Of a stretch of 56,946 nt of DNA, positions 1 to 56,946 are shown piece by piece. The stretch lies in IMG/VR virus record IMGVR_UViG_3300024990_000004. One strand, written 5' to 3'. Position 1 is the stretch's first letter. Each line of letters opens with the position of its first letter. The notes beneath the pieces are model-generated. The model made no database searches. It had not been told where the DNA came from and saw only the letters and a list, made by a program, of their open reading frames with translations. The DNA comes from a virus. Both the position numbers and the translations under genes were made by a program.

Positions 1-127
1 GTATCCTGGCTGAAACCCAGGGCGACGAAACCCGCAAGGCCCATGAAAGCGACGGCGAGGCAAAGCTGGCGCTGCCCGTCATCCAGGCCATCAAAGCCAC
101 CGGATGGCTGCCGCCCGCGCTGCGCAC
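1..127. repeat. Terminal overlap identical to 56820..56946 (circular closure of the contig; 56,819 bp unique)
   Basis: Base-by-base comparison of the first and last 127 nt shows identity. An ORF reads through the junction in frame. Confidence 0.95.
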
Positions 128-209
128 CAGGGCCTATGCCGGACCCAGCGCGAAGACCGCCTCCAGGCCCCAGGCCAAAAAGGCCGCGAAGAAGAAGGCC
201 CGCAGCTGA
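3..209 (+). CDS. C-terminal end of the large ParB/Srx-domain protein that starts at 55181 (wraps the junction; 615 aa joined)
   Basis: Frame 3 continues in frame the ORF left open at 56946. Lys/Ala-rich tail, stop TGA 207-209. Confidence 0.85.
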   Translation: MLAETQGDETRKAHESDGEAKLALPVIQAIKATGWLPPALRTRAYAGPSAKTASRPQAKKAAKKKARS

Positions 210-709
210 TGACATTCTACGCCCACGAAAATCTGGTGCTGGTGGTGGACGGGGAGAACACCTGGCACACCGCCAGGGCCCTCGATCTCGACATTGATTG
301 GGGCAAGCTGCGCGACCTGTTCGCGCGGCAAGCCACCCTTACCGGCGCCTACTACTTCACACCAATGTACGAGCAGGAAGACGGCTTCGCGCCCGTCAAG
401 CGCCTGGTCGACTGGCTGGACTTCAACGGCTGGCAGACCTGGACGGATGGCCGCGACGTATCTGCGGACATGGCGACCGCGGTGATGGAAATGGCGCGCA
501 ACGGTGCCGAGCACTTCGTCATCGCCAGCGGGAACGCAACCTTTGCCGAACTGGTTGCCGCGCTGAAACGTCAGAACAAGGTGGTCACGATCCTGTCCGC
601 CCTGCCGCAATGCTCCGAAGACCTGCGGCGCGCGGCGGACGCCTTCCTCGATCTCTCTACCATCCGCAACTACATCAGCCGGGCGAAGAAGGAGACGGTA
701 GCGGCATGA
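209..709 (+). CDS. NYN/LabA-like (PIN-fold) domain protein with a degenerate acidic motif
   Basis: 166 aa. VVDGEN, SADMATAV and FVIASGNATFAELVAALKRQNKVV follow the NYN layout, but the usual SGDSDF reads SGNATF. The ATG shares its A with the upstream TGA. Confidence 0.7.
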   Translation: MTFYAHENLVLVVDGENTWHTARALDLDIDWGKLRDLFARQATLTGAYYFTPMYEQEDGFAPVKRLVDWLDFNGWQTWTDGRDVSADMATAVMEMARNGAEHFVIASGNATFAELVAALKRQNKVVTILSALPQCSEDLRRAADAFLDLSTIRNYISRAKKETVAA

Positions 710-2490
710 AGTTTCCTATCAGCGACGACGCCCTGGATGACCGCTTGGCTATACTGGGAACAGCCGGGAGTGGGAAAACGTACCTCACCACAACAGCTAT
801 TGAGCGCCTGCTGAAATCTGGCAACCGCGTGGTGGCAGTTGACCCCCTTGGCGTCATGTGGGGCCTGCGGTTGAAGGCGGACGGCAAGACGGCATCCCCA
901 TTCAATGTCGTGATCTTCGGGGGGCGGCACGGTGATTTGCCTCTCACTGAACACGCTGGCGCGCTGATCGGTGAAACCGTCGCCACGATGCGGGAAAGCT
1001 GCATCATTGACCTATCGGAATTGCCGACGAAGGCGGCAGAGCGCCGGTTCATGACTGCGTTCCTGGAAGCCATCTATCGGCACACCGACCCGACCAAGGT
1101 TGATCCATTCCACCTCATCATTGACGAGGCCGACCGCTTCGCGCCGCAAAAGCCGCCCGCCGGCGACGAAACTATGCTGAACCGCATGGAGGAAATCGTG
1201 CGGCGCGGGCGGGTGAAGGGCTTCATCCCCTGGCTCATCACCCAGCGCCCCGCCGTTTTGAACAAGAACGTCCTCAGCCAGGCGGACGGGCTGGTACTGC
1301 TGAAGTTGACCAGTTCGCAGGACCGCGACCAGGTGGGGGCATGGATTGAGGGCCAGGCCGACAAGGCGCAGGGCAAAGCGATCCTGGGGTCCCTGCCCGC
1401 AATGCAGCGCGGCCAGGGTGTGGTCTGGATTCCGGGCCGAGGCATTCTCGAAACAGTACAGTTCCCCAAGAAAACTACCTTCGACAGTTCCAGCGCTCCC
1501 AAGCGCGGCGAGAAGCGCAACGCCAACGAACTGAAGCCTCTCGACGTGGGGAAGCTGAAGGACCGGCTGGCGACGGTAGAAGCCGACACCAAGGCGAACG
1601 ATCCCAAGGCGCTCAGGGCCGAAGTGACCAAGCTTCGGGCGGAACTGGCGAAGGTTGACGGAACGCGCCCAAATTCGCATTTGGTTGCACAACGTGCCGT
1701 GCAACCGAATGCCGCTGACCAGAAGGCTCAGGAACGGGCGCTGGCTGCGGCGCGAGAGGAAGGCGCCCAGGCCGTTCGGGATCAAATCCCCGCTATGCTG
1801 GACGCCCAGCACCAGGCCAGCTTCCAAGCTGGATTCGAGTTCCTGGCCGGCCGCCGGGCCGTATTTGAGACGGACTTCATACCGGCTCGGAAGCCCCTGC
1901 CAGGCAGATCGACCAAGGCGCTCCCGATGGCAGCGAGCCGGCCTGCCCACGCCCCAACCGCCCCCAGCGGCCCGAAACCAACGCTCTCGCGCGCCATCGG
2001 CGCCGGGGACGCTTCCGGCCTGACGCAGCCGCAGCGCCGGATCCTGGCTTCTATCGGCTTCTGGCTATCGGTGGGGAATGAAGCCCCCACCCGCGCCCAG
2101 GTGGGCGGCGTGGCGGGCTACAGCCCCTCATCCGGCGGTTTCAACAACCTCCTGGGCCAGCTCAACAGCGCCGGGCTCATAACCATCCCCGCCCAGGGCC
2201 GCGTCTCCCTGGCACCGGGCGCGCCCTATGACGCCCTCGATCTGGAAGAGGCAAAGGCCAAGGTCCATTCGGTCCTGAGCAACCCCGAGCGCAAGCTGGT
2301 GAACGCGATGGTGGAGGCCGGCGGCGGCCCCATGACGCGCGATGACTTGGGCGCGGCCACCGAATACTCGCCCACCAGCGGAGGCTTCAACAATCTGATC
2401 GGCGGCCTTTGCACACTGACGATCTTCGAGAAACCGGCGCAAGGCCAGGTCGCGCTATCGGCATGGGCGCGCGAGGTGCTGGCGGCATGA
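706..2490 (+). CDS. HerA/FtsK-type (DUF87-like) P-loop ATPase with two C-terminal winged-helix-like repeats
   Basis: 594 aa from ATG 706 (ATGA overlap). Walker A LGTAGSGKTY, Walker B HLIIDEADRF, then RGRVKGFIPWLITQRP..LSQADGLVLLKL. Tandem repeats GYSPSSGGFNNLLGQL / EYSPTSGGFNNLIGGL. Confidence 0.8.
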   Translation: MKFPISDDALDDRLAILGTAGSGKTYLTTTAIERLLKSGNRVVAVDPLGVMWGLRLKADGKTASPFNVVIFGGRHGDLPLTEHAGALIGETVATMRESCIIDLSELPTKAAERRFMTAFLEAIYRHTDPTKVDPFHLIIDEADRFAPQKPPAGDETMLNRMEEIVRRGRVKGFIPWLITQRPAVLNKNVLSQADGLVLLKLTSSQDRDQVGAWIEGQADKAQGKAILGSLPAMQRGQGVVWIPGRGILETVQFPKKTTFDSSSAPKRGEKRNANELKPLDVGKLKDRLATVEADTKANDPKALRAEVTKLRAELAKVDGTRPNSHLVAQRAVQPNAADQKAQERALAAAREEGAQAVRDQIPAMLDAQHQASFQAGFEFLAGRRAVFETDFIPARKPLPGRSTKALPMAASRPAHAPTAPSGPKPTLSRAIGAGDASGLTQPQRRILASIGFWLSVGNEAPTRAQVGGVAGYSPSSGGFNNLLGQLNSAGLITIPAQGRVSLAPGAPYDALDLEEAKAKVHSVLSNPERKLVNAMVEAGGGPMTRDDLGAATEYSPTSGGFNNLIGGLCTLTIFEKPAQGQVALSAWAREVLAA

Positions 2491-2717
2491 CCACCCTTGC
2501 CGAAGCCCTGGAAGCCCCCAAGCGCGCCCAACAGCAACGGTGGGCGCTGCGCCACCTGTTGCGCGTGAATGAGGCGAACGCTTCACCGGAAGATCTGGCG
2601 CTCATCCAGCGCGTCCAGGATGTGAAGACGCCAGACGATTATGACCGCGCCATTGCCGACAAGCGCGTGAGCGAGCTGTTCCGGCGTGGTGTGCTGGTTA
2701 TCGGGAGAGGGCCATGA
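2487..2717 (+). CDS. hypothetical protein (76 aa)
   Basis: ATGA overlaps at both ends; high third-position GC. Confidence 0.6.
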   Translation: MTTLAEALEAPKRAQQQRWALRHLLRVNEANASPEDLALIQRVQDVKTPDDYDRAIADKRVSELFRRGVLVIGRGP

Positions 2718-3064
2718 CCATCACAGTTGCAGACCAAATCCGCTGCGTCCGGCGCGAGCTGGCCCTCCGCGCGAATGTCTATCCCGGCTTCGTGAAGCGC
2801 GGGAAAATGAAGCAGGAGGAAGCCGACCGGGAAATTGCCGCCATGCAGGCGGTCCACGACAGCCTGTGCGCGAACTGGAAGGACATCACCCTGCAGCCGG
2901 TGCCGATGGACGGAAAGCTCTATCGGATCCGATGCAGAAACGACCGCGGCGTTGCCTGGTGGATTCCCGAACAGGAGGCTTATGGCTGGCTTGCCGAAGC
3001 CGGAGAGCTGGACGCCGACAATATCACCCATTGGGCGAAGTTCGACGGGGGCGATCAGCCGTGA
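2714..3064 (+). CDS. hypothetical protein (116 aa)
   Basis: Tracked ORF with ATGA/GTGA coupling to its neighbours. Confidence 0.65.
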   Translation: MTITVADQIRCVRRELALRANVYPGFVKRGKMKQEEADREIAAMQAVHDSLCANWKDITLQPVPMDGKLYRIRCRNDRGVAWWIPEQEAYGWLAEAGELDADNITHWAKFDGGDQP

Positions 3065-3435
3065 CAGGACAAAAATCGGCACGCGCCGTTCCCTGCGGGG
3101 AATGCACGATATGCTGCCGTGGCGGCGAGGCGATCACGCTGCACCCCGAAGATGGCGACGTCCCAGCCTTTTACCAAACCAGCCTGGTGCGCCATCCGCT
3201 GACGGGCGCTCCTATCCAGATACTCAAGCAGAAGCCCGATGGCAGTTGCATCTATCTCGGTGCGACCGGCTGCACGATCTACGAGCGGCGTCCAGTCATC
3301 TGCAAGGCATTCGACTGCCGCCTGTTCGCCAAGAGGATAAAGGGCGAGCTGCGCCGCAAGATATTGGCCGACGGCTTGGGCGCTGCCGAGGTTTTCGAGC
3401 GTGGCGAGCAAATGGCGAGGCTCTATCCGCCATGA
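3061..3435 (+). CDS. YkgJ-type cysteine-cluster (CxxCxxCC zinc/iron-chelating) protein
   Basis: GTG 3061 in a GTGA overlap. Contains CGECTICCRGG ... CIYLGATGCTIYERRPVICKAFDC. Confidence 0.7.
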   Translation: MTGQKSARAVPCGECTICCRGGEAITLHPEDGDVPAFYQTSLVRHPLTGAPIQILKQKPDGSCIYLGATGCTIYERRPVICKAFDCRLFAKRIKGELRRKILADGLGAAEVFERGEQMARLYPP

Positions 3436-3695
3436 TGCCCTGCATCCCATTCCAGACCAAGGATGGCGCGACCGGGATCATATGCACCGGCCGGCGCGGC
3501 CGTCGCCGCTGTTCAACCTGCAAGAATGCCTGGACTTCGCTGGAATGCGACTATCCCATGCCCGATCATAAGAGCGGCACTTGCGACAAGCCGCTATGCG
3601 CCAGGTGTGCGGTGAGCATTGGCCCGAACGTCGATCATTGCCCACACCACCCGAAGGAATTGCCTGCCCACCAGCCGAGGATGGAAGGGCTATGA
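3432..3695 (+). CDS. Cys/His-rich small protein (87 aa), probably metal-binding
   Basis: ATGA overlap. Contains CSTC, CDKPLCARC and HCPHH motifs. Confidence 0.6.
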   Translation: MMPCIPFQTKDGATGIICTGRRGRRRCSTCKNAWTSLECDYPMPDHKSGTCDKPLCARCAVSIGPNVDHCPHHPKELPAHQPRMEGL

Positions 3696-3958
3696 GCGCC
3701 ATCACCAGCGGCAAGGACGTGATCGCCGCCATCAAGGCCGGGGCCGAGCTCTGGCATATCAGCGACAGCCCTTTGCCTGGGCATTGGGAATTGCGCCGCG
3801 CCCGGCAACCCATCCAGCGCGTGCATTGGGACGCCATCGAGATTATCCGCCGGCACTATCTGCCCTGGTTCGAGGCCAACACGGTCTACAGCGAAGAAGG
3901 CCGGTACAATACCGGCTGCTACCAGTTTAAGCAGCGATCACTGGCGGGGCTCGCATGA
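3692..3958 (+). CDS. hypothetical protein (88 aa)
   Basis: ATGA overlaps at both ends; coding-like composition. Confidence 0.6.
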   Translation: MSAITSGKDVIAAIKAGAELWHISDSPLPGHWELRRARQPIQRVHWDAIEIIRRHYLPWFEANTVYSEEGRYNTGCYQFKQRSLAGLA

Positions 3959-4131
3959 GCCCCCGCCCCGCTCGGTTCACGAAGGTCGACCTGCGCCGCG
4001 CCATTGAGACGGCGCGGGAGCTCGGAGACGACTATGTTGTGGATATTCTGCCCAACGGGACGATTCGCATTTCCCATGCACATGACGCCAGGCCCGACAA
4101 GACTGACCAGGAAGAGAGACTCGTGTTTTGA
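3955..4131 (+). CDS. small protein (58 aa) immediately upstream of int; possible directionality factor
   Basis: Not in the ORF track (<60 aa). ATG 3955 in an ATGA overlap, stop TGA 4129-4131. The function is inferred from position only. Confidence 0.5.
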   Translation: MSPRPARFTKVDLRRAIETARELGDDYVVDILPNGTIRISHAHDARPDKTDQEERLVF

Positions 4132-5222
4132 CCGAGGACGTGCCTCGCCCCCGCGCCCAATATCTCCACCGTTTCAAGACGCGCCACGGCAAATTCGTCT
4201 GGTACGTGCGCCCGCCTGGCCACCAGCGGGTCAGAATAAGAGGAGAGTTCGGCACCCCGGAATTTGATGATCAGGTGCGGGTCGCTCTATCGGGAGAACC
4301 CGCACCGGACCGCATGCGCCGCCAGAAGGCGCTATCGGGCACAGTGGAATGGCTGTGGGAGAGGTACCGGGATAGTACCGCATGGACGACCCTTTCGCCC
4401 GCAACGCGCCGTCAGCGCGAGAACATCATGGATGGCGTGAACAAGGCCATCGGTCAAAAGCCGTTCGTGAAGATCAACCGCGCCTCGATCGTGGCCAGCA
4501 GAGACAGCAGAGCCGCCACCCCAGCCCAGGCCCGGAACTTCCTCGACTGCATGCGCGGGCTGTTCCGTTGGGCTCTGGATGCCCAGCATGTCAAGATTGA
4601 CCCTACGGCTGGGGTGAAAAACCCATCACGCCCGCCAGGCGAAGGATTCCCTGTCTGGACCGAGGATGATGTTGAGCGGTACCACGAGAAATGGCGGGTC
4701 GGGACCAAAGAGCGGGTTTGGCTGGACATCCTGCTCTATACCGGCTTGCGGCGGGGCGATGCGGTGCGCATCGGTCGACAGCATGTCCGCGACGGCGTTG
4801 CCAGCATCAAGACCGAAAAGAGCCAGGGCGAGATCGACGTCCATATCCCGATCCTGCCCGTACTGGCCGTCACGCTCGCTGCCGGGCCCACCGGAGACAT
4901 GGCGTTTATCTGCGGCGACCGCGGCGAGCCCCTGACCAAGGAAAGCTTCGGCAACATGTTCCGCGCGGCCTGCCGAAAGGCGGGCGTCAACAAATCCGCC
5001 CACGGGGTTCGCAAAATCGCCGCCACGACCGCGGCCAACAACGGAGCCACCGTGGCTCAGCTGGAAGCGATCTTCGGCTGGCAGGGCGGGCAGATGGCGG
5101 CGCTGTACACCCGGGCGGCGAACCGCCGACGCCTGGCTTTGGAGGCCATGCATTTGCTAGGCGGCCGCCCGGAATCGGTGGGCACGGCACCCGAAAAAGC
5201 CCTTTCTGATCAGAAGGGGTAA
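4128..5222 (+). CDS. int: tyrosine recombinase / phage integrase
   Basis: LYTGLRRGD (Arg), HGVRKIAAT (HxxR) and AALYTRAA (Tyr). The TTG start overlaps the upstream TGA; GTG 4140 is an alternative start. Confidence 0.9.
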   Translation: MTEDVPRPRAQYLHRFKTRHGKFVWYVRPPGHQRVRIRGEFGTPEFDDQVRVALSGEPAPDRMRRQKALSGTVEWLWERYRDSTAWTTLSPATRRQRENIMDGVNKAIGQKPFVKINRASIVASRDSRAATPAQARNFLDCMRGLFRWALDAQHVKIDPTAGVKNPSRPPGEGFPVWTEDDVERYHEKWRVGTKERVWLDILLYTGLRRGDAVRIGRQHVRDGVASIKTEKSQGEIDVHIPILPVLAVTLAAGPTGDMAFICGDRGEPLTKESFGNMFRAACRKAGVNKSAHGVRKIAATTAANNGATVAQLEAIFGWQGGQMAALYTRAANRRRLALEAMHLLGGRPESVGTAPEKALSDQKG

Positions 5223-5463
5223 GGTGGGCACGAAACCACCCTTAACCCCTGCCAGGAAAAGGATTGTGCGCTAATTCTTGACCGCACCAGGCCAAAAATA
5301 AGCCTTTGAAAATATGTTCGTTTTAACGCTGGCGTGCCCACCTTCCAGCAAGGTGGGCATATAGAGCGTTCTCGAATTGCCCCAACTGGCCCAGCGCGAT
5401 ACTTTCCCCACCCCGTCGCCTTGCCCATTCACCCTGTCGCCGGGACCAAGACGGGGATTCGAC
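5221..5463. promoter_or_regulatory. candidate attP / integrase-binding region
   Basis: Non-coding stretch after int. AAGGTGGGCA occurs at 5221-5230 and 5350-5359, with its inverse TGCCCACCTT at 5335-5344. AT-rich segment at 5292-5328. Confidence 0.4.
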
Positions 5464-30855: not shown

Positions 30856-33363
30856 TCAACTGGCCCAAGCGGATGGCGCCCGTTGTCGGCGGCGCTTTCG
30901 CAGCGCATAGCGCGAGCTTTCGTCTTCCACGTCCGGCTTCGGCCACTTCACGTCGAGAGCGGGATCTTCGATGCGGGCCAGCATGTCAAAGAAGTCTTCG
31001 TGCATGGCGACGGGGAACGCCTTGTATTCCTCGTCGACGAACATCTGCACGATGTCGATCTGCCGGTCTTCATAGTCCGTTTTTACCAGGACTTCCGGGA
31101 GCCAGAAGCGTCCGGCCTCGAAGAGGGGTACCAGCTTGCGGATGCGGTCATGCTTGGCCAGGCCGCCGCCCAGGGGCGTGATCTCGAAGCGATATTCCTC
31201 TTCGGTCATCTGGGTTTCGAAATGCTGCAGGTCCGACTGCAAGCCGTATTGCTCGTATCCGACACCCTTGGGCCGCCACCGGCGATGCAGCTGGGAAAGG
31301 GCCTGCCACCGTTCCGTCAGGCTGAGGCGGTCGCGGATACCGTCCAGAAGGTAATAGTTCTGGTCGGGGCCCAGCCCGATCACGCCCATGGCGGTGAAGT
31401 CGCTGTCCTTCTTCTTGGCGTTGGCCGGATCGCACAGCAGATATTTGACCATGCGGTCGCCGCTGATGCGGCCAGAATAGTAGCGCAGCCACTCTTCCTT
31501 GAAGCCGGCCTTCTTGTCGGCGGTGGGGTCTTGGAGCATCTGCGAGCTGAAGGTGTAGATGCCCTGGTCACGCCGCTTCTTGGCCAGCACGTCCGCCGGC
31601 ATCAAGACGGGCGTGCCTGGGAAGGTTCCCTCCACCGTGCAGGTGTGAATGCGGGGTTTGACCGAGCCGCGCGCCATCATTTCACGATACGGATCGGCAT
31701 AGTGATAGCGGGTGCCGATGTAGCGTTCCCACCCGCCGACCTTGCCCAAGTTCAGGCTCAATTCCCAGGCGCCGGTGGTGCGCCGGATGGCATCGGGGTT
31801 GCGCACCGAGTCCTGGTCGATCACGTCGTCATAGACGCGGCCCATGAAGTGCTTGCCGGTAGGCATGCCTTCGACCAGTCCCCAGCATTCGAGCGTGGCT
31901 TCCTTGGGGTTGCCGGTGCGCTTGACGATCAAGCCTTCGTTCTCAGACCATTTCGGCGCCTGCTTCTTCGGCTCCATCCACAGGATGTCGCTGAACAGCC
32001 GCTTCAGGTCGTCGTTGTTCTCGAACTCAGCCTTGATCGGGCGCAAGAAGCCTTTGGCGGCTGCCCGGGTGTGGCTGAAGATGCCGATCGTCACCTCGGG
32101 ATCGATCAGGATGTCCTGGATCGTCTTGGCGAAGGTGATAATCGTGCTGTTGTGTGTCGTCACCATTTGGCGGCCGGCCAGATAGAGGCCATCCGCTCGT
32201 TCAACCTGAATGCAAGACATGGCTCGGCGGCCAATGGCTTTGCAGCTGATGATGAAACGCTTGGCGTTACGGCTGCCCGGCTTCGCTCTTTCTGCTTTGC
32301 GCCGAATGTGGAATGGATTCTGAGCCTGGTAAGCCTGGAATGACACCTGCCAGAACGTTCCGTGCGACGCGCGATATTCCCGTTTGACGGGCTTCATTCC
32401 GAGACTGGTGGCCAGATCGAAGACCAAGGTGGCAAGGACGCCGGTCTTGTTGGTGAAGGTGGCTGTTCCCCGAGTGTTGCAATGGCCATCTGTGTCCATC
32501 AGGCCGCGCAACAAGGCCAACCGCTGCTGCTCGCTGCCCCGCAGATAGTCCATCGGAAGCGCTGTTGCTTTGCTTCCGATCAGACCAAGCCCCCGGAGCA
32601 GAGGACTCAGCCCGTAGACCGTGCGCCGCAACCTATTCGCTGGCCCGATCTTAAACCCCTCGGACTGGATACCTTCTGCGATGTCGGCATCGCCAAAAGT
32701 AATTGAACCATCCGCGCTCGTCCCGTCTCCAAGCCAGCAACCGAGTGTGTATGGGCCGATTGGAAGAATGGCCTCCGGCATATCCAGCGGAGCATTGACC
32801 GGGATGGCAAGGCGCTTGTCAGGCCGGTGCGATATGGCAGCGATTTCCTCGGTTGCGATGACCTTTGGTTCACGATAAGCGCGGCCGCCAGTAATCCTGC
32901 GCCTGGAACGCGCCTCGACCTGCCACAGGTGATCGCGGCTTGCCTCCATCCTGGAGCCGTCATCGAAAACCAACTCGAACGCCGGTGCCTCATCAAAGAC
33001 CTTGGAGACGGCAACCACACGGGTTGGCTGGCCATCAGGGCCAAAGACCCAGTCATCAGGCTTCAGGTCGCCATGGCGAGCCCAGCCGGACGGTGTTGGT
33101 ACTGGCTCATCCAGCCGCAGGGCTTTGTAATGTTCGCGCGCCCACAGGTCCAAGTGCCCATTGGGCGAGGCCTGGACTTCGCAGCACCGCTCGAACAGCC
33201 AATCCCGGTTGATGTCCTTTCGCTTCAGCGGGAACAGCAGCAGATAGAACAGGTCCGCGCGGCAGAGTTTGCGCTGGGCCTCGATGAAATGGCTTTCGCC
33301 CTGCTCGCGGGCGCGGTCCAGAATGCGCCGATAGGCGCTCAGCCGCTCAAGGCGTGGGTTCAC
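30856..33363 (-). CDS. terL: terminase large subunit interrupted by an intein (835-aa precursor, 510-aa exteins)
   Basis: P-loop LDLWAREHYK|..intein..|STIITFAKT. The C-terminal half has terminase nuclease-type motifs (LLCDPA.., AMGVIG). Confidence 0.85.
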   Translation of the reverse strand: MNPRLERLSAYRRILDRAREQGESHFIEAQRKLCRADLFYLLLFPLKRKDINRDWLFERCCEVQASPNGHLDLWAREHYKALRLDEPVPTPSGWARHGDLKPDDWVFGPDGQPTRVVAVSKVFDEAPAFELVFDDGSRMEASRDHLWQVEARSRRRITGGRAYREPKVIATEEIAAISHRPDKRLAIPVNAPLDMPEAILPIGPYTLGCWLGDGTSADGSITFGDADIAEGIQSEGFKIGPANRLRRTVYGLSPLLRGLGLIGSKATALPMDYLRGSEQQRLALLRGLMDTDGHCNTRGTATFTNKTGVLATLVFDLATSLGMKPVKREYRASHGTFWQVSFQAYQAQNPFHIRRKAERAKPGSRNAKRFIISCKAIGRRAMSCIQVERADGLYLAGRQMVTTHNSTIITFAKTIQDILIDPEVTIGIFSHTRAAAKGFLRPIKAEFENNDDLKRLFSDILWMEPKKQAPKWSENEGLIVKRTGNPKEATLECWGLVEGMPTGKHFMGRVYDDVIDQDSVRNPDAIRRTTGAWELSLNLGKVGGWERYIGTRYHYADPYREMMARGSVKPRIHTCTVEGTFPGTPVLMPADVLAKKRRDQGIYTFSSQMLQDPTADKKAGFKEEWLRYYSGRISGDRMVKYLLCDPANAKKKDSDFTAMGVIGLGPDQNYYLLDGIRDRLSLTERWQALSQLHRRWRPKGVGYEQYGLQSDLQHFETQMTEEEYRFEITPLGGGLAKHDRIRKLVPLFEAGRFWLPEVLVKTDYEDRQIDIVQMFVDEEYKAFPVAMHEDFFDMLARIEDPALDVKWPKPDVEDESSRYALRKRRRQRAPSAWAS
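32149..33123 (-). mobile_element. intein (325 aa) with LAGLIDADG homing-endonuclease domain; class-3-like (Ala1, W-C-T)
   Basis: Starts ALRLDEPV and ends VTTHN|S. Block B is SRDHLW and block F is AMSCIQVE. LAGLIDADG motifs LGCWLGDGT and LLRGLMDTDG. Confidence 0.8.
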
Positions 33364-39280: not shown

Positions 39281-39988
39281 CTACGCAACTTCGTTTCTGG
39301 GAGGGTAGCGGCGTTCTATATCCTCAACCGTCACCCCGACTTTCTTGGCAATCGCGGCCTTGAGCTCGGCGGCATCTGTGCTGTCACGGCCCGTTTTGAT
39401 CCTGGCCGAAAGCTGGGTTTCTTCGTCGTCCCGCCGCGTGTCGCTGACCACGCGCATACGGTCCCCCAGTTCGTTAAGCCGCTGCGCCATGCTTCCTAGC
39501 GCATCGTCGGCCGGCGGCGGGAGCGCCAGCAGCTGGTTTGCCTTTTCCAGCGCAAGCATTTTCTGCCGCCGGGTCTTGATATCGTCTGCGCACAGATCAC
39601 GCAGCTGGCCGGGATCGGGAAACCATTTTGCCTTCCCCTCATTCGGCGCCATGACGAACCGCTCGGCCGCCGAGCGGAGCATTTTTCCAGTCACGCCTGC
39701 CCGGCTCAGAAGCTGGAAATAAAGGTCCAGCATTGTGTGCGCGTCATCGGGCGATAGGTTCGCCCTGGGCATTAGGATCGCCAAGTTCTTCAGCACACTG
39801 TCGCATTCCTCTTTCCGCAGCGGCACACCCAGGGCCGCCTCGAGTGCCTGCAGTTCGCGCTTAAGCTGGGGCACGGGGAGAGATGACAATCTCCTCGCCT
39901 CCGCCATCGAATAGGCCGTTCCCATTGCGCTCTTGAACGGCACGACCGACTGTGGCGGCAAAGCCTGTGAGGGCAGGTTTTTGGACAT
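39281..39988 (-). CDS. replication-module protein of unknown function (235 aa)
   Basis: ATG 39988 after AGAGG. This frame has clearly higher GC3 than the overlapping tail of the initiator gene. Confidence 0.55.
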   Translation of the reverse strand: MSKNLPSQALPPQSVVPFKSAMGTAYSMAEARRLSSLPVPQLKRELQALEAALGVPLRKEECDSVLKNLAILMPRANLSPDDAHTMLDLYFQLLSRAGVTGKMLRSAAERFVMAPNEGKAKWFPDPGQLRDLCADDIKTRRQKMLALEKANQLLALPPPADDALGSMAQRLNELGDRMRVVSDTRRDDEETQLSARIKTGRDSTDAAELKAAIAKKVGVTVEDIERRYPPRNEVA

Positions 39989-40694
39989 GGTCACCTCTGT
40001 CCGATTTGAGTTTGAAAACATCGCGCCAACTGTTCCTGGTGGATTGATCGAGAACTTCCCCGGGGTCATGGCCATGCTTCCGCAGTTCGTCGAGCTTGCT
40101 GACGATCAGCGTCTTGGCGCGATCGGTGAGCGGGTAGCGGATTTTATTCCGCATAGCGACGAAGCCTGTCCAGGCATCGACTGGTAGCCAAGCAGGCAAC
40201 CCCAGATCGAGTTCAGCCTGGGGCTTGGAATGGGAGCCGCCCGAAGGGCGTTGCGCCTTTGGTTCCTCTGGCGGTTCTATTGACGGTTCATCCTTATATG
40301 GGATTCCACCTGGTGGAATGGTTTTTCCACCTCCGGGAATCTTATTTCCACGAGGTGGAATCGATTTTCCACCGGGTGGAATCGCACCCTTCCGCTTTCC
40401 ACGAGGTGGAATCTCCTGCCAAGCCTCCGGGACGGCGATCTGAAAGGCCTTGATGGCGTAGCCATGTTCGGGGTGGAGCGCGTCAAGGGCCTTTATCAGC
40501 CCCAGGCCCTCAAGAGCCGTCAGGTGCTTGTAGACAGTCGATTGGCCCAATTCGGTGTGCTCGATGAGCAATTCTATGGACGGCCAGCAGAAGCCCTGCT
40601 CGTTGGCATTGTCGGCTAGCTTCGCCAGCACCAGCTTGGCTGCCGGTGACCCGGTGTGCTGCTCCATGGCCCAAGAAACGACTTTTCCACTCAT
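39861..40694 (-). CDS. replication initiator (N-terminal wHTH), lambda O-like with an internal origin
   Basis: wHTH PAAKLVLAKLADNANEQGFCWPSIELLIEHTELGQSTVYKHLTALE. The central IPPGG/IPPRG repeats are encoded by the iterons. Confidence 0.75.
   Translation of the reverse strand: MSGKVVSWAMEQHTGSPAAKLVLAKLADNANEQGFCWPSIELLIEHTELGQSTVYKHLTALEGLGLIKALDALHPEHGYAIKAFQIAVPEAWQEIPPRGKRKGAIPPGGKSIPPRGNKIPGGGKTIPPGGIPYKDEPSIEPPEEPKAQRPSGGSHSKPQAELDLGLPAWLPVDAWTGFVAMRNKIRYPLTDRAKTLIVSKLDELRKHGHDPGEVLDQSTRNSWRDVFKLKSDRGDHVQKPALTGFAATVGRAVQERNGNGLFDGGGEEIVISPRAPA
40303..40412. repeat. five 17-bp palindromic iterons (candidate origin of replication)
   Basis: (A/T)TTCCAC-N3-G(G/T)GGAAT starting at 40303, 40324, 40345, 40366 and 40396, giving spacings of 21, 21, 21 and 30 bp. 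Confidence 0.8.
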
Positions 40695-40704
40695 GCTGCA
40701 TTAC

Positions 40705-41331
40705 TCAAATGGGAGCTCTGAGGAATTGCGGGGGGGGGGGGGGGGGGGGGGGGGCTTCATTGCCTTCGTCGTCGAACTTTCCTGTCTGATGACCCCAACC
40801 GTCGTAGCCGGGCCGCGATTTTCGGCTGAACAGATCGGCGCGGCCTTGCAGGTTCGGGCAGCACGCGTCCACCATCCGGTAAAATTCCTCCGGCTTGCGC
40901 GAGTGCTGGCGGGCGATACCGTCGAAGCAGGACAAGAAGGGCTCGTGAGTGGGATTGCCCGTCACGCAGAGCAAGATTGGCTCGTGACATGTCCGGACAC
41001 GATAACCGGTGCCCATGCGGACCTTCCCGCTAGTCGTGGTCTTGCGCCACACAATCTCGGTCAAAGGCCGGAACCCCCAGGCAGCGGCCACTTGCTGTGC
41101 CTGCCCGGTGGCAATTGTCCAACCGCATGTCCACATCAAAAGCAGACAATCTCGGGCGGCGAGTTCTCCCACCCGCAGGGCCTTGATCGCATCGAGGCTC
41201 ATCACCTGATAGTGGGGATCGGCGCCCTTGGCGGTGCCGGCGTCGGAATAGTTCTCGAAGTCCCACGGCGGGTCCGCAACGATAAGGTCGTAGCCGAACA
41301 TCTGCATGGAACCGAACTGCCAAGCCGTCAT
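40705..41331 (-). CDS. MT-A70-family DNA N6-adenine methyltransferase
   Basis: DLIVADPPWDF motif. ATG 41331 follows GGGGAG. The C-terminal Pro8 is encoded by the homopolymer. Confidence 0.85.
   Translation of the reverse strand: MTAWQFGSMQMFGYDLIVADPPWDFENYSDAGTAKGADPHYQVMSLDAIKALRVGELAARDCLLLMWTCGWTIATGQAQQVAAAWGFRPLTEIVWRKTTTSGKVRMGTGYRVRTCHEPILLCVTGNPTHEPFLSCFDGIARQHSRKPEEFYRMVDACCPNLQGRADLFSRKSRPGYDGWGHQTGKFDDEGNEAPPPPPPPPQFLRAPI
40730..40754. repeat. 25-nt G homopolymer (poly-C on the coding strand)
   Basis: Counted directly. It lies in the last 16 codons of the methylase and 35 nt upstream of the initiator ATG. Confidence 0.9.
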
Positions 41332-41501
41332 GCCGCTCCCCCGTCCCGGGCGATGACGCCCGTCATTGCCTTCACAGGCTCGGCCTTTCCGGTCTTGAGG
41401 ATGCGCCGCACATCCCCCAGCCGTTTCTCGTCCAGAGCGGCGATGGCATCTGCGATGACGCCCTGCAGGCGGCCGACTTCCCTTTCCAGATCGACGGTCA
41501 T
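41328..41501 (-). CDS. small protein (57 aa)
   Basis: Not in the ORF track. ATGA overlaps at both ends link ParB-like, this ORF and the methylase. Confidence 0.5.
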   Translation of the reverse strand: MTVDLEREVGRLQGVIADAIAALDEKRLGDVRRILKTGKAEPVKAMTGVIARDGGAA

Positions 41502-42838: not shown

Positions 42839-43368
42839 CAGCGCGTCCCTCCGACTGAAAAGAGTTGTGGCTGGTTTGGCTTCCAGCCGGGATATTCGCG
42901 GGCCATGCCGTAGGCCCAGACCGCCTTTGCGTCGGACTCGTCGTCGTTCGCATATGACCAGCCCAGATTGTCACACAAACTCTGGACCGCTTCCTTCGCC
43001 TCCTTCCGAGGCAGATAGGGATTGACGCCGAATGCCTTGCGGACGTTGAAGACCGAACACATCACCACCCGGATGTGGAGCATCCCGAGCTGCATGCGGA
43101 TGCCGCCGGTCATCTGGGCCAGAGCAGCCGCGCTGGCTTCGCTGTGGTTTCGGTCCACCTTCGACATGGGGGCTTCGAGATAGACGGCGCGCGGCCGCAG
43201 GAATTGCACCTGCTGAACCAGCGAGCGCCCAACACTGCCGAGCGTGTGGTCAAACAAATGTTCGTCGCAGCCTGCAAGCTTCCAGACGCCGCCACGGGGA
43301 GCCGGATCGACCGGCCCCCCATGGGCAAAGCCCATTGCAACGGTTGAAGCGTCGTATGCCAGTATCAC
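42838..43368 (-). CDS. RuvC-like Holliday junction resolvase
   Basis: ILAYDAS...GFA, AVYLEAP and DESDAKAVWAYG give the acidic catalytic pattern. Confidence 0.7.
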   Translation of the reverse strand: MILAYDASTVAMGFAHGGPVDPAPRGGVWKLAGCDEHLFDHTLGSVGRSLVQQVQFLRPRAVYLEAPMSKVDRNHSEASAAALAQMTGGIRMQLGMLHIRVVMCSVFNVRKAFGVNPYLPRKEAKEAVQSLCDNLGWSYANDDESDAKAVWAYGMAREYPGWKPNQPQLFSVGGTR

Positions 43369-44242: not shown

Positions 44243-44517
44243 ACCAGCCCCTTTTCCAGCGCCGTCTCGAGCTCGACCTGAATGGATATCGGCATGTCTT
44301 TCGTGGCCCGCCCCACCACCAGACGCGATGCGGGCTCGACCTTCCGCAGCGGAATCCAGGTGGGGACAGTCATGCGCTCGGTGGTGAGCAGCACGGCCTT
44401 GTCGGTGCCGTTGAGGTAGACGCCTTTCACAATGGCGTATTCGACGTGCCTTCTTGCGTTCTCACGGCCCGGGGGCTGGTGGAAGGCGCGGCGCCGCGAT
44501 GAGGTCAAGCGCATCAT
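44239..44517 (-). CDS. hypothetical protein (92 aa)
   Basis: Tracked ORF with an ATGA overlap. Confidence 0.55.
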   Translation of the reverse strand: MMRLTSSRRRAFHQPPGRENARRHVEYAIVKGVYLNGTDKAVLLTTERMTVPTWIPLRKVEPASRLVVGRATKDMPISIQVELETALEKGLV

Positions 44518-55180: not shown

Positions 55181-56946
55181 ATGAACGCCCACGCCAAGAT
55201 CGCCATCGCCACCGCAATGCTGTCCCAGCTCAAGCCGGGATCGGAATACCCCGGCGGCAATATCAACGCCCGCCTCACCTATACCGATGACGAAATTGAG
55301 GAACTGGCCGCCAGCCTGAAAGGCCCGGATGGACAAATTCGCCCACTCCTGGTCGCCACCCATCCCAAGAAGCCGGGTGTGTTTTTCGTCTTCGGCGGAG
55401 GGCGCCGACGCATTGCCTTCGAGCGGCTGATTGTGCGCGGCGATCTTCCCAAGGATCACCCCATTGAGATCATCGACCATGGCGAGATCACGCCCGCCCA
55501 GGCCCTGTCGCGGTCTTTTGCAGATAACCAGGCGGTTCCCATGCACCCCGCCGACCAGGCAGCGACTTTTGCCAAGCTGGCCGCGGATCGAACCCCAGAA
55601 GAAATTGCCAGGGAACGGGGCATGACGGTTCGAGGCGTGAAGCAGTCCATCGCGTTGGGTACAGTCCTGGCCCCCGAGGTTCTGGCGGCGTGGCGGGCTG
55701 GGAAGCTGTCCCGCGAAGAGGTCGAGGTTTTCACCATCGCTTCCGACTTCGAGTCCCAGGCAAAGGCCCTAGCTGACAGCTACAGCTTCAAGAATGGCCA
55801 CGGCATTAAGGCCAATGAGGTCCGCCGCGAGCTGACCAAAAACAAAGAGCCGGAAATGAAACGGCTGCTGGGCTTTGTCGGAGTGGCGGATTACCGGGCC
55901 CAAGGCGGCGAAGTGGCCGAGGACTTTTTTGGCGAAGGCGGCAACGTCAAGGACATGAAGCTGCTGCGCAAGCTGGCCAAGGCCAAGATGGAAGGCATTG
56001 CCGCCGACCTCGAATCCACCGGCTGGGCATGGGTGGAAGCCGATCTGGCGGAAGCGCGCAGCCACCATGGCTATGGCGCGGTCCATGCGGACCCGGATTA
56101 CACCGTCGAGGAAAAGAAACGGATCGGGGAACTGACCGCAGCCCTCGAGGCCATGGCCAATTCTGATGAAGATCACGATTACATCGGGGAAATGCGTCTC
56201 GAAAGAGAGCGCGATGCTATCGAAGAGATAGCCACGTTCCGCGCCTTCACCGAAAAGCAGAAGAAAAAGAGCGGTGTCATTGTCTCGCTGAAAAGCGACG
56301 GCACGGTGGTGTGCCAAGGCGGGTTGCTCCGCAGGGATGAGCCCAAGGCAGCAGCGAAGCCGGGCACTCCTGCTGCACGCGCGTCGGAGCCGCCGAAGAT
56401 CCCCGACATCAATCGCGAGGTCGAGGAATCCTTGAACGATCTGCAGGATGATGTGCTGGCCAACCTGATAGCGGCCAAGCCCAAGGAAGCTTTTGCCCTG
56501 TTCCTCGCCGCCATCCCCCATTGTGATTGGCGCGGCGTTATCCGGTGGGCCGACCTAAACGATGCCGCCGATGATCTAATTCCGGGGAAGGACTTCGCAG
56601 CTTCATTCGCAGCGCTCCGCAAGCTGCCGATCGACAAGATGGCCGCCAAGCTGGCGGTAATGGTCGGAAAAGTCGCCAACGTCAGCGGCTATGTCAGCGG
56701 CAACAAGGATGCCATCGCCATTGTTGACATGGTCGGGGAAAAGAACCTGCAAACCGGGCTCGCCAAGGCGTTCGATCCCAAACCCTACGTCACTGGCGCA
56801 TCTAAGCAGCATCTTCTCGGTATCCTGGCTGAAACCCAGGGCGACGAAACCCGCAAGGCCCATGAAAGCGACGGCGAGGCAAAGCTGGCGCTGCCCGTCA
56901 TCCAGGCCATCAAAGCCACCGGATGGCTGCCGCCCGCGCTGCGCAC
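55181..56946 (+). CDS. large ParB/Srx-domain protein, N-terminal 588 codons (continues at 3..209)
   Basis: Not in the ORF track because it runs off the end. RBS AAGGAA. IRPLLVATHPKKPGVFFVFGGGRRRIAFERL, plus HTH TPEEIARERGMTVRGVKQSI. Confidence 0.8.
   Translation, partial: MNAHAKIAIATAMLSQLKPGSEYPGGNINARLTYTDDEIEELAASLKGPDGQIRPLLVATHPKKPGVFFVFGGGRRRIAFERLIVRGDLPKDHPIEIIDHGEITPAQALSRSFADNQAVPMHPADQAATFAKLAADRTPEEIARERGMTVRGVKQSIALGTVLAPEVLAAWRAGKLSREEVEVFTIASDFESQAKALADSYSFKNGHGIKANEVRRELTKNKEPEMKRLLGFVGVADYRAQGGEVAEDFFGEGGNVKDMKLLRKLAKAKMEGIAADLESTGWAWVEADLAEARSHHGYGAVHADPDYTVEEKKRIGELTAALEAMANSDEDHDYIGEMRLERERDAIEEIATFRAFTEKQKKKSGVIVSLKSDGTVVCQGGLLRRDEPKAAAKPGTPAARASEPPKIPDINREVEESLNDLQDDVLANLIAAKPKEAFALFLAAIPHCDWRGVIRWADLNDAADDLIPGKDFAASFAALRKLPIDKMAAKLAVMVGKVANVSGYVSGNKDAIAIVDMVGEKNLQTGLAKAFDPKPYVTGASKQHLLGILAETQGDETRKAHESDGEAKLALPVIQAIKATGWLPPALR
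56820..56946. repeat. terminal overlap identical to 1..127
   Basis: See feature 1..127. Confidence 0.95.

What the first reader, a model, noticed from the sequence alone, without database searches (positions are those of the whole stretch)
209..2490. Degenerate NYN domain plus HerA-like ATPase with twin wHTH tail: candidate undescribed effector-translocase module next to int
These are two translationally coupled genes. Gene 1 has the LabA/NYN (PIN-fold) layout (VVDGEN, SADMATAV), but the two acidic residues of the canonical SGDSDF motif read SGNATF. Gene 2 is a DUF87/HerA-FtsK-type P-loop ATPase (Walker A LGTAGSGKTY, Walker B IIDEADRF, ITQRP..LSQADG) fused to two tandem winged-helix-like repeats. 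A small effector followed by HerA is the architecture of archaeal NurA-HerA end-resection machines and of the SIR2-HerA and DUF4297-HerA anti-phage systems. I am not aware of a described NYN-HerA-wHTH pairing. The pair sits at the int-proximal accessory end of the early operon, just after a 615-aa ParB/Srx protein and the Erf/YqaJ recombination genes. It could therefore be a prophage-borne exclusion system or a phage DNA-processing/anti-defence machine.
Basis: partly seen in the sequence, partly recalled or inferred. Interest (0 to 1): 0.8.

Follow-up and report, generated by a model that had tools for sequence, protein, structure and literature searches.

The report
Phage DNA-pump ATPase with optional NYN
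The two genes are real, but only the second matters broadly: it is a very widespread, uncharacterised phage ATPase of the FtsK/HerA DNA-pump type with two matched DNA-reading domains, and the nuclease-like gene in front of it is an occasional, here probably inactive, passenger.

Summary
Gene 1 (209-709) is an NYN protein with SGNATF in place of SGDxDF. Gene 2 (706-2490) overlaps it by 4 bp and is a HerA/FtsK-fold ATPase followed by a coiled coil, a disordered linker and two winged-helix repeats.

The "NYN-HerA module" reading is largely not supported. Gene 2 belongs to a huge family (9,033 clusters at 50% identity), mostly in temperate phages and prophages of Alphaproteobacteria. None of about 91 distinct sampled family loci carries an NYN gene. 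No neighbouring gene family occurs in more than 19 of 102 loci. The slots directly upstream and downstream are hypervariable. NYN is one rare occupant: 5 of 7 phage NYN genes examined sit there.

Gene 2 lacks HerA's HAS-barrel. The phage has its own terminase. It also has a lambda-O-like initiator whose gene contains five iterons. Packaging and replication initiation are therefore unlikely roles.

One new observation: the recognition-helix regions of the two repeats are 69% identical within a protein but 30% identical between proteins. About half of the matching residues use different codons, so selection maintains the match.

Best reading: a stand-alone, sequence-targeted ring DNA translocase made early in lytic growth. 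Its biological role is unknown.

The parts
209..709 (+). Gene 1: NYN/LabA-like protein, 166 aa, with a degenerate acidic motif (SGNATF; N109 and T111 replace the two Asp residues).
   Evidence: Pfam NYN 7.7e-15. PADLOC NYN model 1.4e-9. Alignments with homologues.
706..2490 (+). Gene 2: 594-aa ATPase - coiled coil - linker - twin wHTH protein. ATGA overlap with gene 1. A 76-aa gene starts 4 bp before its stop.
706..1515 (+). Minimal FtsK/HerA-superfamily ATPase domain (residues 1-270) with no HAS-barrel. Walker A K24, Walker B D140/E141, candidate Arg fingers R166/R167/R169, sensor Q180.
   Evidence: Invariant columns. PDB sequence hits to HerA. Foldseek hits to HerA and STIV2 B204 with TMt 0.73-0.76. 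BFVD top hit is the PH1 ATPase.
1549..1866 (+). Long helical, coiled-coil-like stalk (residues 282-387).
   Evidence: AF2 secondary structure: H282-297, H300-319, H336-387.
1867..2019 (+). Pro/Ala-rich disordered linker (about residues 388-438).
   Evidence: pLDDT below 50 for residues 387-434.
2020..2211 (+). Winged-helix repeat 1 (residues 439-502). Turn plus recognition helix: GYSPSSGGFNNLLGQL.
   Evidence: Internal repeat. Model at pLDDT 92.6. Repeat profile finds exactly two copies in 337 of 343 family proteins.
2275..2457 (+). Winged-helix repeat 2 (residues 524-584). Turn plus recognition helix: EYSPTSGGFNNLIGGL.
55181..56946 (+). Context: 615-aa ParB_N-domain protein. It runs across the circular junction and ends at position 209. 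It is present upstream in only about 10 of 102 family loci.
2487..2717 (+). Context: 76-aa gene in the hypervariable slot directly downstream. A gene starts at the same -3 position in 63 of 93 loci, but these genes fall into 85 sequence clusters.
4128..5222 (+). Context: tyrosine integrase at the end of the same + strand operon.
   Evidence: Pfam Phage_integrase.

Best explanation
Gene 2 is a stand-alone member of a very large, uncharacterised family of temperate-phage early proteins.

Architecture: a minimal FtsK/HerA-type ATPase with all catalytic residues intact. The trans-acting arginine finger implies a ring oligomer. A helical stalk and a flexible linker join it to two winged-helix domains.

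Inferred mechanism: the two winged helices read the same short DNA element, present twice. They load or orient the ring on double-stranded DNA carrying that element, and the motor then pumps or unwinds DNA using ATP. This is the logic of FtsK-gamma/KOPS and of Streptomyces TraB with its plasmid-specific repeats.

Timing and role: the protein is made from the early-left operon (recombination genes to integrase), so it acts during lytic development or induction. It most likely works on phage DNA metabolism or in conflict with other DNA. It is not the packaging motor and not the replication initiator.

Gene 1 is not an obligate partner. It is an optional NYN gene occupying the hypervariable slot just upstream. 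In this phage it has lost two of its four acidic residues and is probably catalytically dead or decaying.

Shown: fold, motifs, family size, lack of a conserved partner, and co-variation of the two repeats. Inferred: ring formation, DNA translocation, sequence targeting and the biological role.
For: Fold and active site.

No HAS-barrel.

Family size and uniform architecture: more than 2,205 close homologues; 9,033 clusters at 50% identity with E<=1e-3 and 3,784 with E<=1e-30, nearly all listed hits 540-620 aa and full length; exactly two WH repeats in 337 of 343.

Phage setting: the contigs carrying the protein are all about 56.8 kb with different end points, and the window has a 127-bp terminal overlap. 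Terminase, portal and major head genes are present. Prophage copies occur in Bradyrhizobium, Afipia and Xanthobacteraceae genomes.

Acts alone: apart from the ATPase, no gene family occurs in more than 19 of 102 loci. NYN occurs in 0 of about 91 distinct loci. The upstream slot is variable. The downstream slot gives 85 clusters from 93 loci.

Sequence-specific, diversifying DNA reading: across 18 turn-plus-helix-3 columns, the two repeats are 69% identical within a protein and 30% identical between proteins (218 non-redundant proteins). Of 1,102 identical residue pairs in 92 loci, 54% use different codons, and in the window 7 of 12 do. The match is therefore kept by selection, not by recent gene conversion.

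Not the terminase: TerL lies at 30856-33363.

Not the initiator: an HTH_36 protein at 39861-40694 carries five 18-bp dyad iterons inside its gene. DnaB-type helicases lie near the ATPase in 4 loci.

Co-transcribed early gene: start/stop overlaps, and no + strand promoter-like or terminator-like site between positions 1 and 5400.
Against: No DNA target was found. There are no iterons near the gene and no over-represented or strand-skewed 7-8-mers in the phage genome.

The winged-helix pair has no specific solved relative. The best Foldseek E-value is 4e-3, to generic tandem-WH proteins, so DNA binding is inferred from the fold only.

Ring formation and translocation are inferred from superfamily membership; no multimer model or assay was available.

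The commonest recognition-helix variant (SGGFNNL) is shared by many phages, which fits a common host or structural target as well as it fits a phage-specific site.

NYN adjacency in 5 of 7 phage NYN contexts, next to diverged ATPases, is more than a random slot would easily give. A facultative functional link cannot be excluded.

A related operon (L011) lacks the ATPase, so the gene is dispensable for at least some relatives.
Confidence: 0.5

Rival explanations
1. NYN plus the HerA-like ATPase form a two-gene effector-translocase system, like NurA-HerA, SIR2-HerA or DUF4297-HerA. It would serve as a prophage-borne exclusion or defence system, with the motor feeding nucleic acid to the NYN nuclease.
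For: 4-bp translational coupling. Five of seven phage NYN homologues lie directly upstream of a family ATPase, and those ATPases are diverged. PADLOC HerA and NYN models match at domain level. Published HerA/FtsK 'capture' systems combine this motor with wHTH domains and nucleases (PMC10853773).
Against: NYN is absent from about 91 distinct sampled ATPase loci and from four of five closer relatives looked up individually. The window's NYN lacks both Asp residues of SGDxDF. There is no HAS-barrel; from my own knowledge of the HerA complex structures, this is the domain on which NurA, SIR2 and DUF4297 dock. 4-bp overlaps with whatever gene sits upstream are the rule: 43 of 81 loci. The gene lies in an early lytic operon with no + strand promoter-like site found. 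No PADLOC system partner is present.
Confidence: 0.1
2. Gene 2 is a counter-defence or inter-element conflict factor. Its fast-evolving twin wHTH recognises competitor or host DNA (or a defence nucleoprotein), and the motor strips, displaces or captures it. The variable upstream genes (NYN, HNH and others) would be interchangeable accessory effectors.
For: The recognition helices diversify quickly between phages while staying matched within a protein. The neighbourhood is rich in methyltransferases, HNH, a Lar-like protein, DUF5131, DUF1643 and similar anti-restriction-type genes. The gene is dispensable in a related operon. Fast-evolving wHTH with HerA/FtsK has a precedent in conflict systems.
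Against: The ATPase core is highly conserved (50-60% identity across many phages), and the architecture is uniform across thousands of clusters. This looks more like housekeeping phage DNA metabolism than an arms-race gene. Most upstream genes have no nuclease signature. No known anti-defence family matched.
Confidence: 0.2
3. Gene 2 is the phage's replication initiator and/or replicative helicase: an origin-binding domain joined to a hexameric motor, as in E1, large T antigen or P4 alpha.
For: It is an early gene placed next to the recombination genes. It combines a twin WH with a ring motor. No DnaB, primase or polymerase was recognised in the window.
Against: The window encodes a lambda-O-like HTH_36 protein (39861-40694, - strand) with five 21-bp-spaced dyad iterons inside its own gene. 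This is a classical initiator-plus-origin arrangement. DnaB-type helicases accompany the ATPase in 4 loci. There are no iterons near gene 2. A related operon lacks the gene.
Confidence: 0.07
4. Gene 2 is a genome-packaging ATPase, as the best PHROG hit suggests (phrog_2666, 'terminase large subunit') and as the structural similarity to STIV2 B204 and the PH1 ATPase might imply.
For: phrog_2666, E=3.9e-23. Foldseek TMt 0.73-0.76 to B204. The top BFVD hit is the Haloarcula virus PH1 ATPase.
Against: The phage has a canonical TerL (phrog_38, 4.5e-47), a TerS-like protein, a portal and a major head protein in the late operon. Gene 2 is in the early operon next to the integrase. The similarity covers only the shared minimal ATPase core.
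Confidence: 0.02

Closest known systems
FtsK/SpoIIIE and Streptomyces plasmid TraB (sequence-directed dsDNA translocases)
   Same: An FtsK-HerA-superfamily ring motor followed by C-terminal winged-helix domain(s) that read short repeated DNA motifs: KOPS, SRS, or plasmid-specific clt repeats (my own knowledge of these systems). TraB specificity differs between plasmids, much as the recognition helices differ between phages here.
   Different: No Pfam FtsK_SpoIIIE match at E<=1. There is no room for an N-terminal membrane anchor or alpha domain, because the P-loop starts at residue 18. There are two WH domains per chain, after a coiled coil. No FtsK-gamma hit appears among the top 50 structural matches. 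The gene is encoded in a tailed-phage early operon.
HerA helicase with its partners (NurA-HerA, SIR2-HerA, DUF4297-HerA)
   Same: These are the best sequence and structure matches for the ATPase core. They share Walker A/B, the arginine finger and the QRP sensor motif.
   Different: No HAS-barrel. Scores are far below the NCBIfam HerA cut-offs: 38.5 bits against 970. No NurA, SIR2 or DUF4297 partner is present. The protein also has the added coiled coil and twin wHTH.
HerA/FtsK 'capture' conflict systems (PMC10853773; PMC12839542)
   Same: A HerA/FtsK motor combined with rapidly evolving wHTH domains, and sometimes with nucleases, on mobile elements.
   Different: Those are multi-gene cellular or transposon-derived loci with Orc/Cdc6, REase, SF3 helicase or BREX parts. 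Here a single polypeptide sits in a phage early operon with no conserved partner.
Minimal packaging ATPases of membrane-containing viruses (STIV2 B204, PH1/SH1, PM2, A32-like)
   Same: An ATPase domain of the same size and fold, with no HAS-barrel.
   Different: Those proteins are about 200-250 aa and consist of the ATPase alone, in viruses without terminase or portal. This phage has TerL, a portal and a major head protein.
LabA-like NYN proteins of Alphaproteobacteria (PF01936)
   Same: Gene 1 aligns end to end with them. More distant homologues (about 32-41% identity) include a copy in a cellular context beside HPPK and UDG genes.
   Different: The phage clade lacks a roughly 13-residue insertion and the acidic tail. 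Several members, including the window's, have substitutions in the acidic motif.

Membership tests
HerA helicase (NCBIfam NF040819, NF042943; Pfam DUF87 + HerA_C) | RecA-like core with Walker A, Walker B, trans arginine finger and sensor-1 Gln | tested here: met
   K24, D140/E141, R166/R167/R169 and Q180 are invariant in 50 homologues. Sequence hits to PDB HerA chains. Foldseek probability 1.00 to HerA chains.
HerA helicase (NCBIfam NF040819, NF042943; Pfam DUF87 + HerA_C) | N-terminal HAS-barrel domain | tested here: not met
   In the model the first strand (residues 14-17) runs straight into the P-loop. Residue 11 of gene 2 aligns to HerA residue 178.
HerA helicase (NCBIfam NF040819, NF042943; Pfam DUF87 + HerA_C) | Whole-protein score above the curated cut-off | tested here: not met
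   NF040819: 38.5 bits against 970. NF042943: 35.2 bits against 800. Pfam DUF87 is only just above its cut-off (24.2 against 23.2 bits) and matches residues 10-47 only.
HerA-based two-gene systems (NurA-HerA, SIR2-HerA, DUF4297-HerA) | Conserved adjacent effector gene | tested here: not met
   No such partner in the window. No neighbour family occurs in more than 19 of 102 loci. NYN occurs in 0 of about 91 distinct loci. Census of the upstream slot.
FtsK/SpoIIIE/TraB translocases | FtsK_SpoIIIE motor domain signature | tested here: not met
   No Pfam FtsK_SpoIIIE hit at E<=1. Only a weak phrog_1358 'FtsK/SpoIIIE-like' hit at 2e-4.
FtsK/SpoIIIE/TraB translocases | C-terminal winged-helix DNA-recognition domain | tested here: inconclusive
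   Twin WH domains are present at high model confidence. Their best structural matches are generic (SelB, STIV19-unrelated tandem-WH proteins such as STK19, ScpB, MarR; E>=4e-3), and FtsK-gamma is not among the top 50. DNA binding was not tested.
FtsK/SpoIIIE/TraB translocases | Hexameric ring that translocates dsDNA | not testable with these tools
   No multimer prediction or assay was available. It is inferred from the conserved arginine finger and the superfamily.
NYN domain (PF01936) | Profile match above the gathering threshold | tested here: met
   56.1 bits against 24.2, covering residues 10-149.
NYN domain (PF01936) | Complete set of conserved acidic (metal-binding) residues | tested here: not met
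   D14 and the D of SADMA are kept. SGDxDF reads SGNATF, so both Asp residues are lost. The relative in L124 (51% identical) keeps TGDCDF. That these residues are catalytic comes from my general knowledge of PIN/NYN domains.
Tailed-phage large terminase | Is the phage's packaging ATPase-nuclease in the late operon | tested here: not met
   A separate TerL lies at 30856-33363 (phrog_38, 4.5e-47) with the portal next to it. Gene 2 is in the early operon.

The most novel reading that the evidence does not exclude
The family is a new class of phage-encoded, site-directed DNA pumps. Each phage's twin recognition helices co-evolve with a phage-specific (or rival-specific) repeated DNA element. The ring motor uses that address to move, clear or capture DNA early in infection. 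The genes that rotate through the coupled upstream slot (NYN, HNH and others) would be interchangeable nucleases fed by the motor. That would make it a phage-side counterpart of the cellular HerA/FtsK 'capture' systems.
Probability: 0.15. Interest if true: 0.8.

Novelty: new variant of a known kind. Interest (0 to 1): 0.5.

Why it matters
Thousands of soil and freshwater temperate phages and prophages carry this one conserved early gene. Hosts include Bradyrhizobium, Afipia, Devosia, Sphingomonadales and some Actinomycetes, and some actinobacterial plasmids carry it too. Nobody appears to have named it.

It joins a DNA-pump motor to a pair of DNA-reading heads that change together. That suggests a programmable, sequence-addressed translocase. 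Finding its DNA address would show what a tailed phage needs such a pump for, in addition to its terminase and replication machinery. It could also provide a set of orthogonal DNA-targeted motors.

For annotation, two points follow. The NYN-HerA pair should not be catalogued as a defence system. The PHROG label 'terminase large subunit' should not be transferred to this family.

Tried and rejected
1. Terminase reading, prompted by phrog_2666. Rejected: a canonical TerL, portal and major head protein are present.

2. Replication initiator/helicase. I first favoured this because no replication gene was recognised. Rejected after finding an HTH_36 O-like protein with five internal iterons and DnaB genes in 4 family loci.

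3. Iterons or repeats near gene 2: only chance-level two-copy matches.

4. KOPS-like over-represented or strand-skewed 7-8-mers in the phage genome: none, best z about 3.

5. A conserved partner gene. Clustering all ORFs of at least 60 aa across about 105 loci found none. The small gene directly downstream is hypervariable.

6. A general 'nuclease upstream' rule. Of 81 upstream genes, only 5 are HNH and none is NYN.

7. PDB sequence search for the NYN protein: no hit at E<=1. For the twin WH profile there was only one chance-level hit.

8. GenBank phages: a single 34%-identical hit, annotated 'hera helicase', in an uncultured Caudoviricetes genome. The blastn search of 1-5300 found nothing useful.

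9. Plasmid homologues: annotated only as 'helicase HerA-like domain-containing protein' or DUF87, in phage-like regions of actinobacterial plasmids.

10. Literature searches found no description of this family or of an NYN-HerA pair.

11. Gene conversion as the cause of repeat similarity. Rejected because 54% of identical residue pairs use different codons.
Full report
**What is at 209-2490**

The window is a circularly closed assembly of a phage genome of about 56.8 kb. Its first and last 127 bases are identical. The gene 2 protein is on record as a hypothetical or "ATP-binding" protein of "uncultured Devosia sp.". The contigs that carry it are all about 56.8 kb, with different end points.

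Gene 1 is 209-709 (166 aa). Gene 2 is 706-2490 (594 aa). They overlap in ATGA.

Gene 1 matches Pfam NYN at E=7.7e-15, which is 56.1 bits against a 24.2-bit threshold. In an alignment with its 15 detectable homologues, the invariant Asp of VVDGEN is kept. The SGDGDF/SGDSDF motif reads SGNATF, so both Asp residues are gone. The NYN of a close relative (L124) is 51% identical and keeps TGDCDF.

Gene 2 has four parts:
- An ATPase domain, residues 1-270.
- A long helical stalk, residues 282-387.
- A disordered Pro/Ala-rich linker.
- Two tandem winged-helix repeats, residues 439-502 and 524-584.

The evidence for this layout is the AF2 model at pLDDT 84.6, the internal repeat score of 121 against 27+/-5 for shuffles, and the C-terminal model at pLDDT 92.6.

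**What kind of ATPase gene 2 is**

Sequence searches put the core in the HerA branch of the FtsK-HerA superfamily. PADLOC HerA models reach 4e-20 and NCBIfam HerA models 5e-10, but both cover only the second half of the core and score far below the curated cut-offs. PDB HerA chains reach 2.7e-7.

Foldseek on the model returns two groups. One is HerA from the SIR2-HerA, HerA-NurA and DUF4297-HerA complexes. The other is the roughly 200-aa packaging NTPase B204 of STIV2, with TM-score 0.73-0.76 normalised to the target. In the viral structure library the top hit is the ATPase of Haloarcula virus PH1, followed by other minimal packaging ATPases.

Walker A (K24), Walker B (D140/E141), three arginines just upstream of the QRP strand (R166, R167, R169) and the sensor Gln (Q180) are invariant in 50 homologues. 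This matches the HerA/FtsK signature described in PMC10853773. It implies an active, oligomeric enzyme, because the arginine finger acts across subunits.

The protein has no HAS-barrel. The first strand (residues 14-17) leads directly to the P-loop. It is therefore a minimal FtsK/HerA-type motor, not a HerA proper. It is also not a VirB4 or coupling protein; only P-loop-level hits to those families were seen.

**Is NYN + ATPase a conserved pair?**

Seen from the ATPase, it is not.

- Family size. Gene 2 has more than 2,205 close homologues in the word-indexed search. The exhaustive search found 9,033 clusters at 50% identity with E<=1e-3 and 3,784 with E<=1e-30. Almost all listed hits are 540-620 aa and match full length.
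- Sampled loci. I fetched 106 loci with up to 10 kb of flank on each side: 37 from reference genomes and 69 from IMG/VR. The genomes are mostly Hyphomicrobiales and Sphingomonadales, with a few Burkholderiales, Actinomycetes and Gemmatimonadota. A profile built from the NYN alignment found no NYN ORF in any of them, which is about 91 distinct loci.
- Closer relatives looked up individually. P0004 (68% identical) has an NYN gene directly upstream. P0002 (70-75%), P0006 (61%), P0009 (60%) and P0078 (53%) do not.
- Neighbourhood. I clustered all ORFs of at least 60 aa from about 105 non-redundant loci. Apart from the ATPase, no family occurs in more than 19 of 102 loci. The commonest neighbours are DUF5131, PD-(D/E)XK-type and YqaJ exonucleases, Erf or RecT, integrases, the ParB-like protein, DUF1643, an RNase T-like exonuclease and DNA methyltransferases.
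- Upstream slot. A 4-bp overlap with whatever lies upstream is the rule: 43 of 81 loci. The occupant varies: HNH 5, methyltransferases 4, DUF1643 2, DUF6745 2, NYN 0, and most have no Pfam hit.
- Downstream slot. A gene starts 4 bp before the ATPase stop in 63 of 93 loci, yet these genes form 85 sequence clusters.

The ATPase is thus the one constant gene in a mosaic early operon, flanked on both sides by accessory slots.

Seen from NYN, the picture differs. The NYN protein has few detectable relatives: 15 hits. The more distant ones (about 32-41% identity) include a copy in a cellular context beside HPPK and UDG genes.

Seven phage-borne copies were examined:
- Five lie directly upstream of a family ATPase with a 4-bp overlap: the window, L124, L009, L010 and L120.
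- Two have no adjacent ATPase: L011 and L121.

The five linked ATPases are not each other's closest relatives. The window's is 38% identical to L009's, 28-31% to L010's and 32% to L120's, whereas NYN-less L006 and L007 are 60-61% identical to it. The NYN proteins themselves stay 47-54% identical.

So NYN has repeatedly ended up, or been kept, in the slot just before this ATPase. Two explanations fit. The slot may be a recombination-prone accessory position. Alternatively there may be a facultative functional link in a small minority of phages. I cannot separate the two with these tools. Either way the ATPase clearly does not need NYN, and the window's NYN has lost half of its acidic residues.

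**What gene 2 is not**

It is not the terminase. The late operon has a TerL (30856-33363, phrog_38 at 4.5e-47), a TerS-like protein, a portal (phrog_156 at 7e-100) and a major head protein (phrog_334 at 4.6e-91). The phrog_2666 label "terminase large subunit" reflects only the shared ATPase core.

It is very unlikely to be the replication initiator. A k-mer scan led to five 18-bp dyad-symmetric repeats, TTTCCACNNGGTGGAATC, at 40303-40413 with 21-bp spacing. They lie inside a 277-aa ORF on the minus strand (39861-40694). That ORF has an HTH_36 domain (E=2.9e-11), and its middle region encodes IPPGG/IPPRG repeats from the iterons. This is the lambda O / ori-lambda arrangement. In addition, DnaB-type helicases occur within 10 kb of the ATPase in four family loci, and one related early operon (L011) has no ATPase at all.

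It is also unlikely to be a lysogen-expressed defence gene. It lies between Erf/YqaJ and the integrase in a run of genes with overlapping stops and starts. The simple scans found no + strand promoter-like or terminator-like site between positions 1 and 5400. Its position is analogous to the exo-to-int stretch of the lambda pL operon.

**A new clue: the two winged helices co-vary**

A repeat profile finds exactly two copies in 337 of 343 full-length family proteins.

I compared 218 non-redundant proteins over the 18 columns that cover the turn and the recognition helix. In the window these read YSPSSGGFNNLLGQLNSA and YSPTSGGFNNLIGGLCTL. The two repeats are 69% identical within a protein but 30% identical between proteins. 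Over the whole repeat the figures are 46% within a protein, 27% between proteins, and 31% for the same repeat compared across proteins.

Examples of the pairs:
- YSPSSTSYTNPRSALKTG / YSASSTSYTNPRSALKTK
- WKPGGSNIRGRLSELSTA / WEPGGSNIRGRLSEMSSL
- YKRSS--RDAYIQRLREK / YKRSS--RDAYLQRMKAK

Across 92 loci with DNA in hand, 600 of the 1,102 identical residue pairs (54%) use different codons. In the window the figure is 7 of 12. The match is therefore maintained at the protein level, not by recent gene conversion.

The simplest reading is that both domains read the same short element, and that this specificity diversifies between phages. This is the behaviour of sequence-specific DNA-binding modules such as TraB/clt, initiator/iteron or ParB/parS pairs.

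Structurally the pair resembles generic tandem winged-helix proteins (SelB, STK19, ScpB, MarR, DtxR; best E 4e-3) and has no close solved relative.

I did not find the target. There are no repeats near the gene and no over-represented or strand-skewed 7-8-mers on the phage genome.

**Most likely mechanism**

Shown: a catalytically complete minimal FtsK/HerA motor; a stalk, a tether and twin WH domains whose reading heads are matched but diversifying; a single-gene unit; early-operon expression context; very wide distribution in temperate phages, plus some actinobacterial plasmids.

Inferred: the protein forms a ring. Its twelve WH domains per hexamer dock it onto DNA carrying a repeated address. 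The motor then translocates or unwinds that DNA. This is the FtsK-gamma/KOPS and TraB/clt logic (my own knowledge of those systems).

The biological purpose is open. My estimates are:
- A role in phage DNA metabolism, such as processing or moving replicating or recombining phage DNA: about 0.3.
- A conflict or counter-defence role: about 0.2.
- An obligate NYN-ATPase module: about 0.1.
- Initiator or helicase: about 0.07.
- Packaging: about 0.02.

**Comparison with known systems and novelty**

It works like FtsK/SpoIIIE/TraB, but it fails their sequence signature and lacks their N-terminal parts. Its core is nearest to HerA, but it lacks the HAS-barrel and any of HerA's partners. It echoes the HerA/FtsK + wHTH + nuclease "capture" systems described in PMC10853773 and PMC12839542, but it is a single polypeptide in a phage operon.

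I found no paper or curated family describing it. RefSeq calls plasmid homologues "helicase HerA-like domain-containing protein" or DUF87.

I rate it a new variant of a known kind. The ATPase family itself, and the co-varying twin reading heads, deserve follow-up.

Noticed in passing
window 40303-40413 and 39861-40694 (- strand): Five 18-bp dyad-symmetric iterons (TTTCCACNNGGTGGAATC; spacing 21, 21, 21 and 30 bp) lie inside a 277-aa ORF. The ORF has an HTH_36 domain, and its middle encodes IPPGG/IPPRG repeats. This is very likely the phage origin inside a lambda-O-like initiator gene.
   Followed up: partly
window 40730-40754: A 25-nt homopolymer G run on the + strand. It encodes a poly-Pro stretch at the C-terminal end of the methyltransferase ORF 40705-41547 (-) and lies about 35-60 nt upstream of the initiator's ATG. 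It may be a slippage-prone tract or an assembly artefact.
   Followed up: no
window 1-127 and 56820-56946: The first and last 127 bases are identical, as in an assembler's circular overlap. The window is therefore a complete circular or terminally redundant genome of about 56.8 kb, and the 615-aa ParB-like gene (55181 to 209) spans the junction.
   Followed up: yes
window 5177-5344: A cluster of GGTGGGCA(CG) repeats in direct and inverted orientation lies just downstream of the integrase gene. These may be integrase binding sites of attP.
   Followed up: no
window 2487-2717 and L010:8189-8425: The 76-aa gene downstream of the ATPase has a clear homologue downstream of the L010 ATPase. The NYN genes upstream are also homologous (47% identical). 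The ATPases between them are only 28% identical. The flanks are conserved around a swapped or fast-diverged core gene.
   Followed up: partly
window 41498-43368 (- strand): A second ParB-like protein (446 aa, phrog_1033) and a RuvC-like resolvase sit in the other early operon. That operon also holds a LexA-DNA-binding-domain protein (45828-46265) and a T5orf172/GIY-YIG-like protein (44514-45266).
   Followed up: no
proteins P0291, P0301, P0305, P0324: A profile of the twin winged-helix module also finds ORFs of 135-300 aa. Some are on contigs of at least 40 kb or in a Bradyrhizobium chromosome. They could be stand-alone twin-WH proteins or split ATPase genes. Many other hits are fragments from short contigs.
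   Followed up: no
L118 (Clavibacter sepedonicus pCSL1) and L119 (Mycobacterium avium p1-JPH1): Full-length homologues (30-38% identity) lie on actinobacterial plasmids among phage-like early genes such as a C5 methyltransferase and DUF4326. pCSL1 also carries a separate FtsK/SpoIIIE-domain gene nearby.
   Followed up: partly
PHROG phrog_2666: The best PHROG match for gene 2 is labelled 'terminase large subunit'. In this phage, which has a canonical TerL, that label would be a misannotation if transferred.
   Followed up: yes
alignment A1 (NYN homologues): Substitutions in the acidic motifs are common across the phage NYN clade: SGNGDF, TGDVLF, TGDALF, and VNL in place of VDL. Relaxed or altered catalysis is therefore not unique to the window's copy.
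   Followed up: partly
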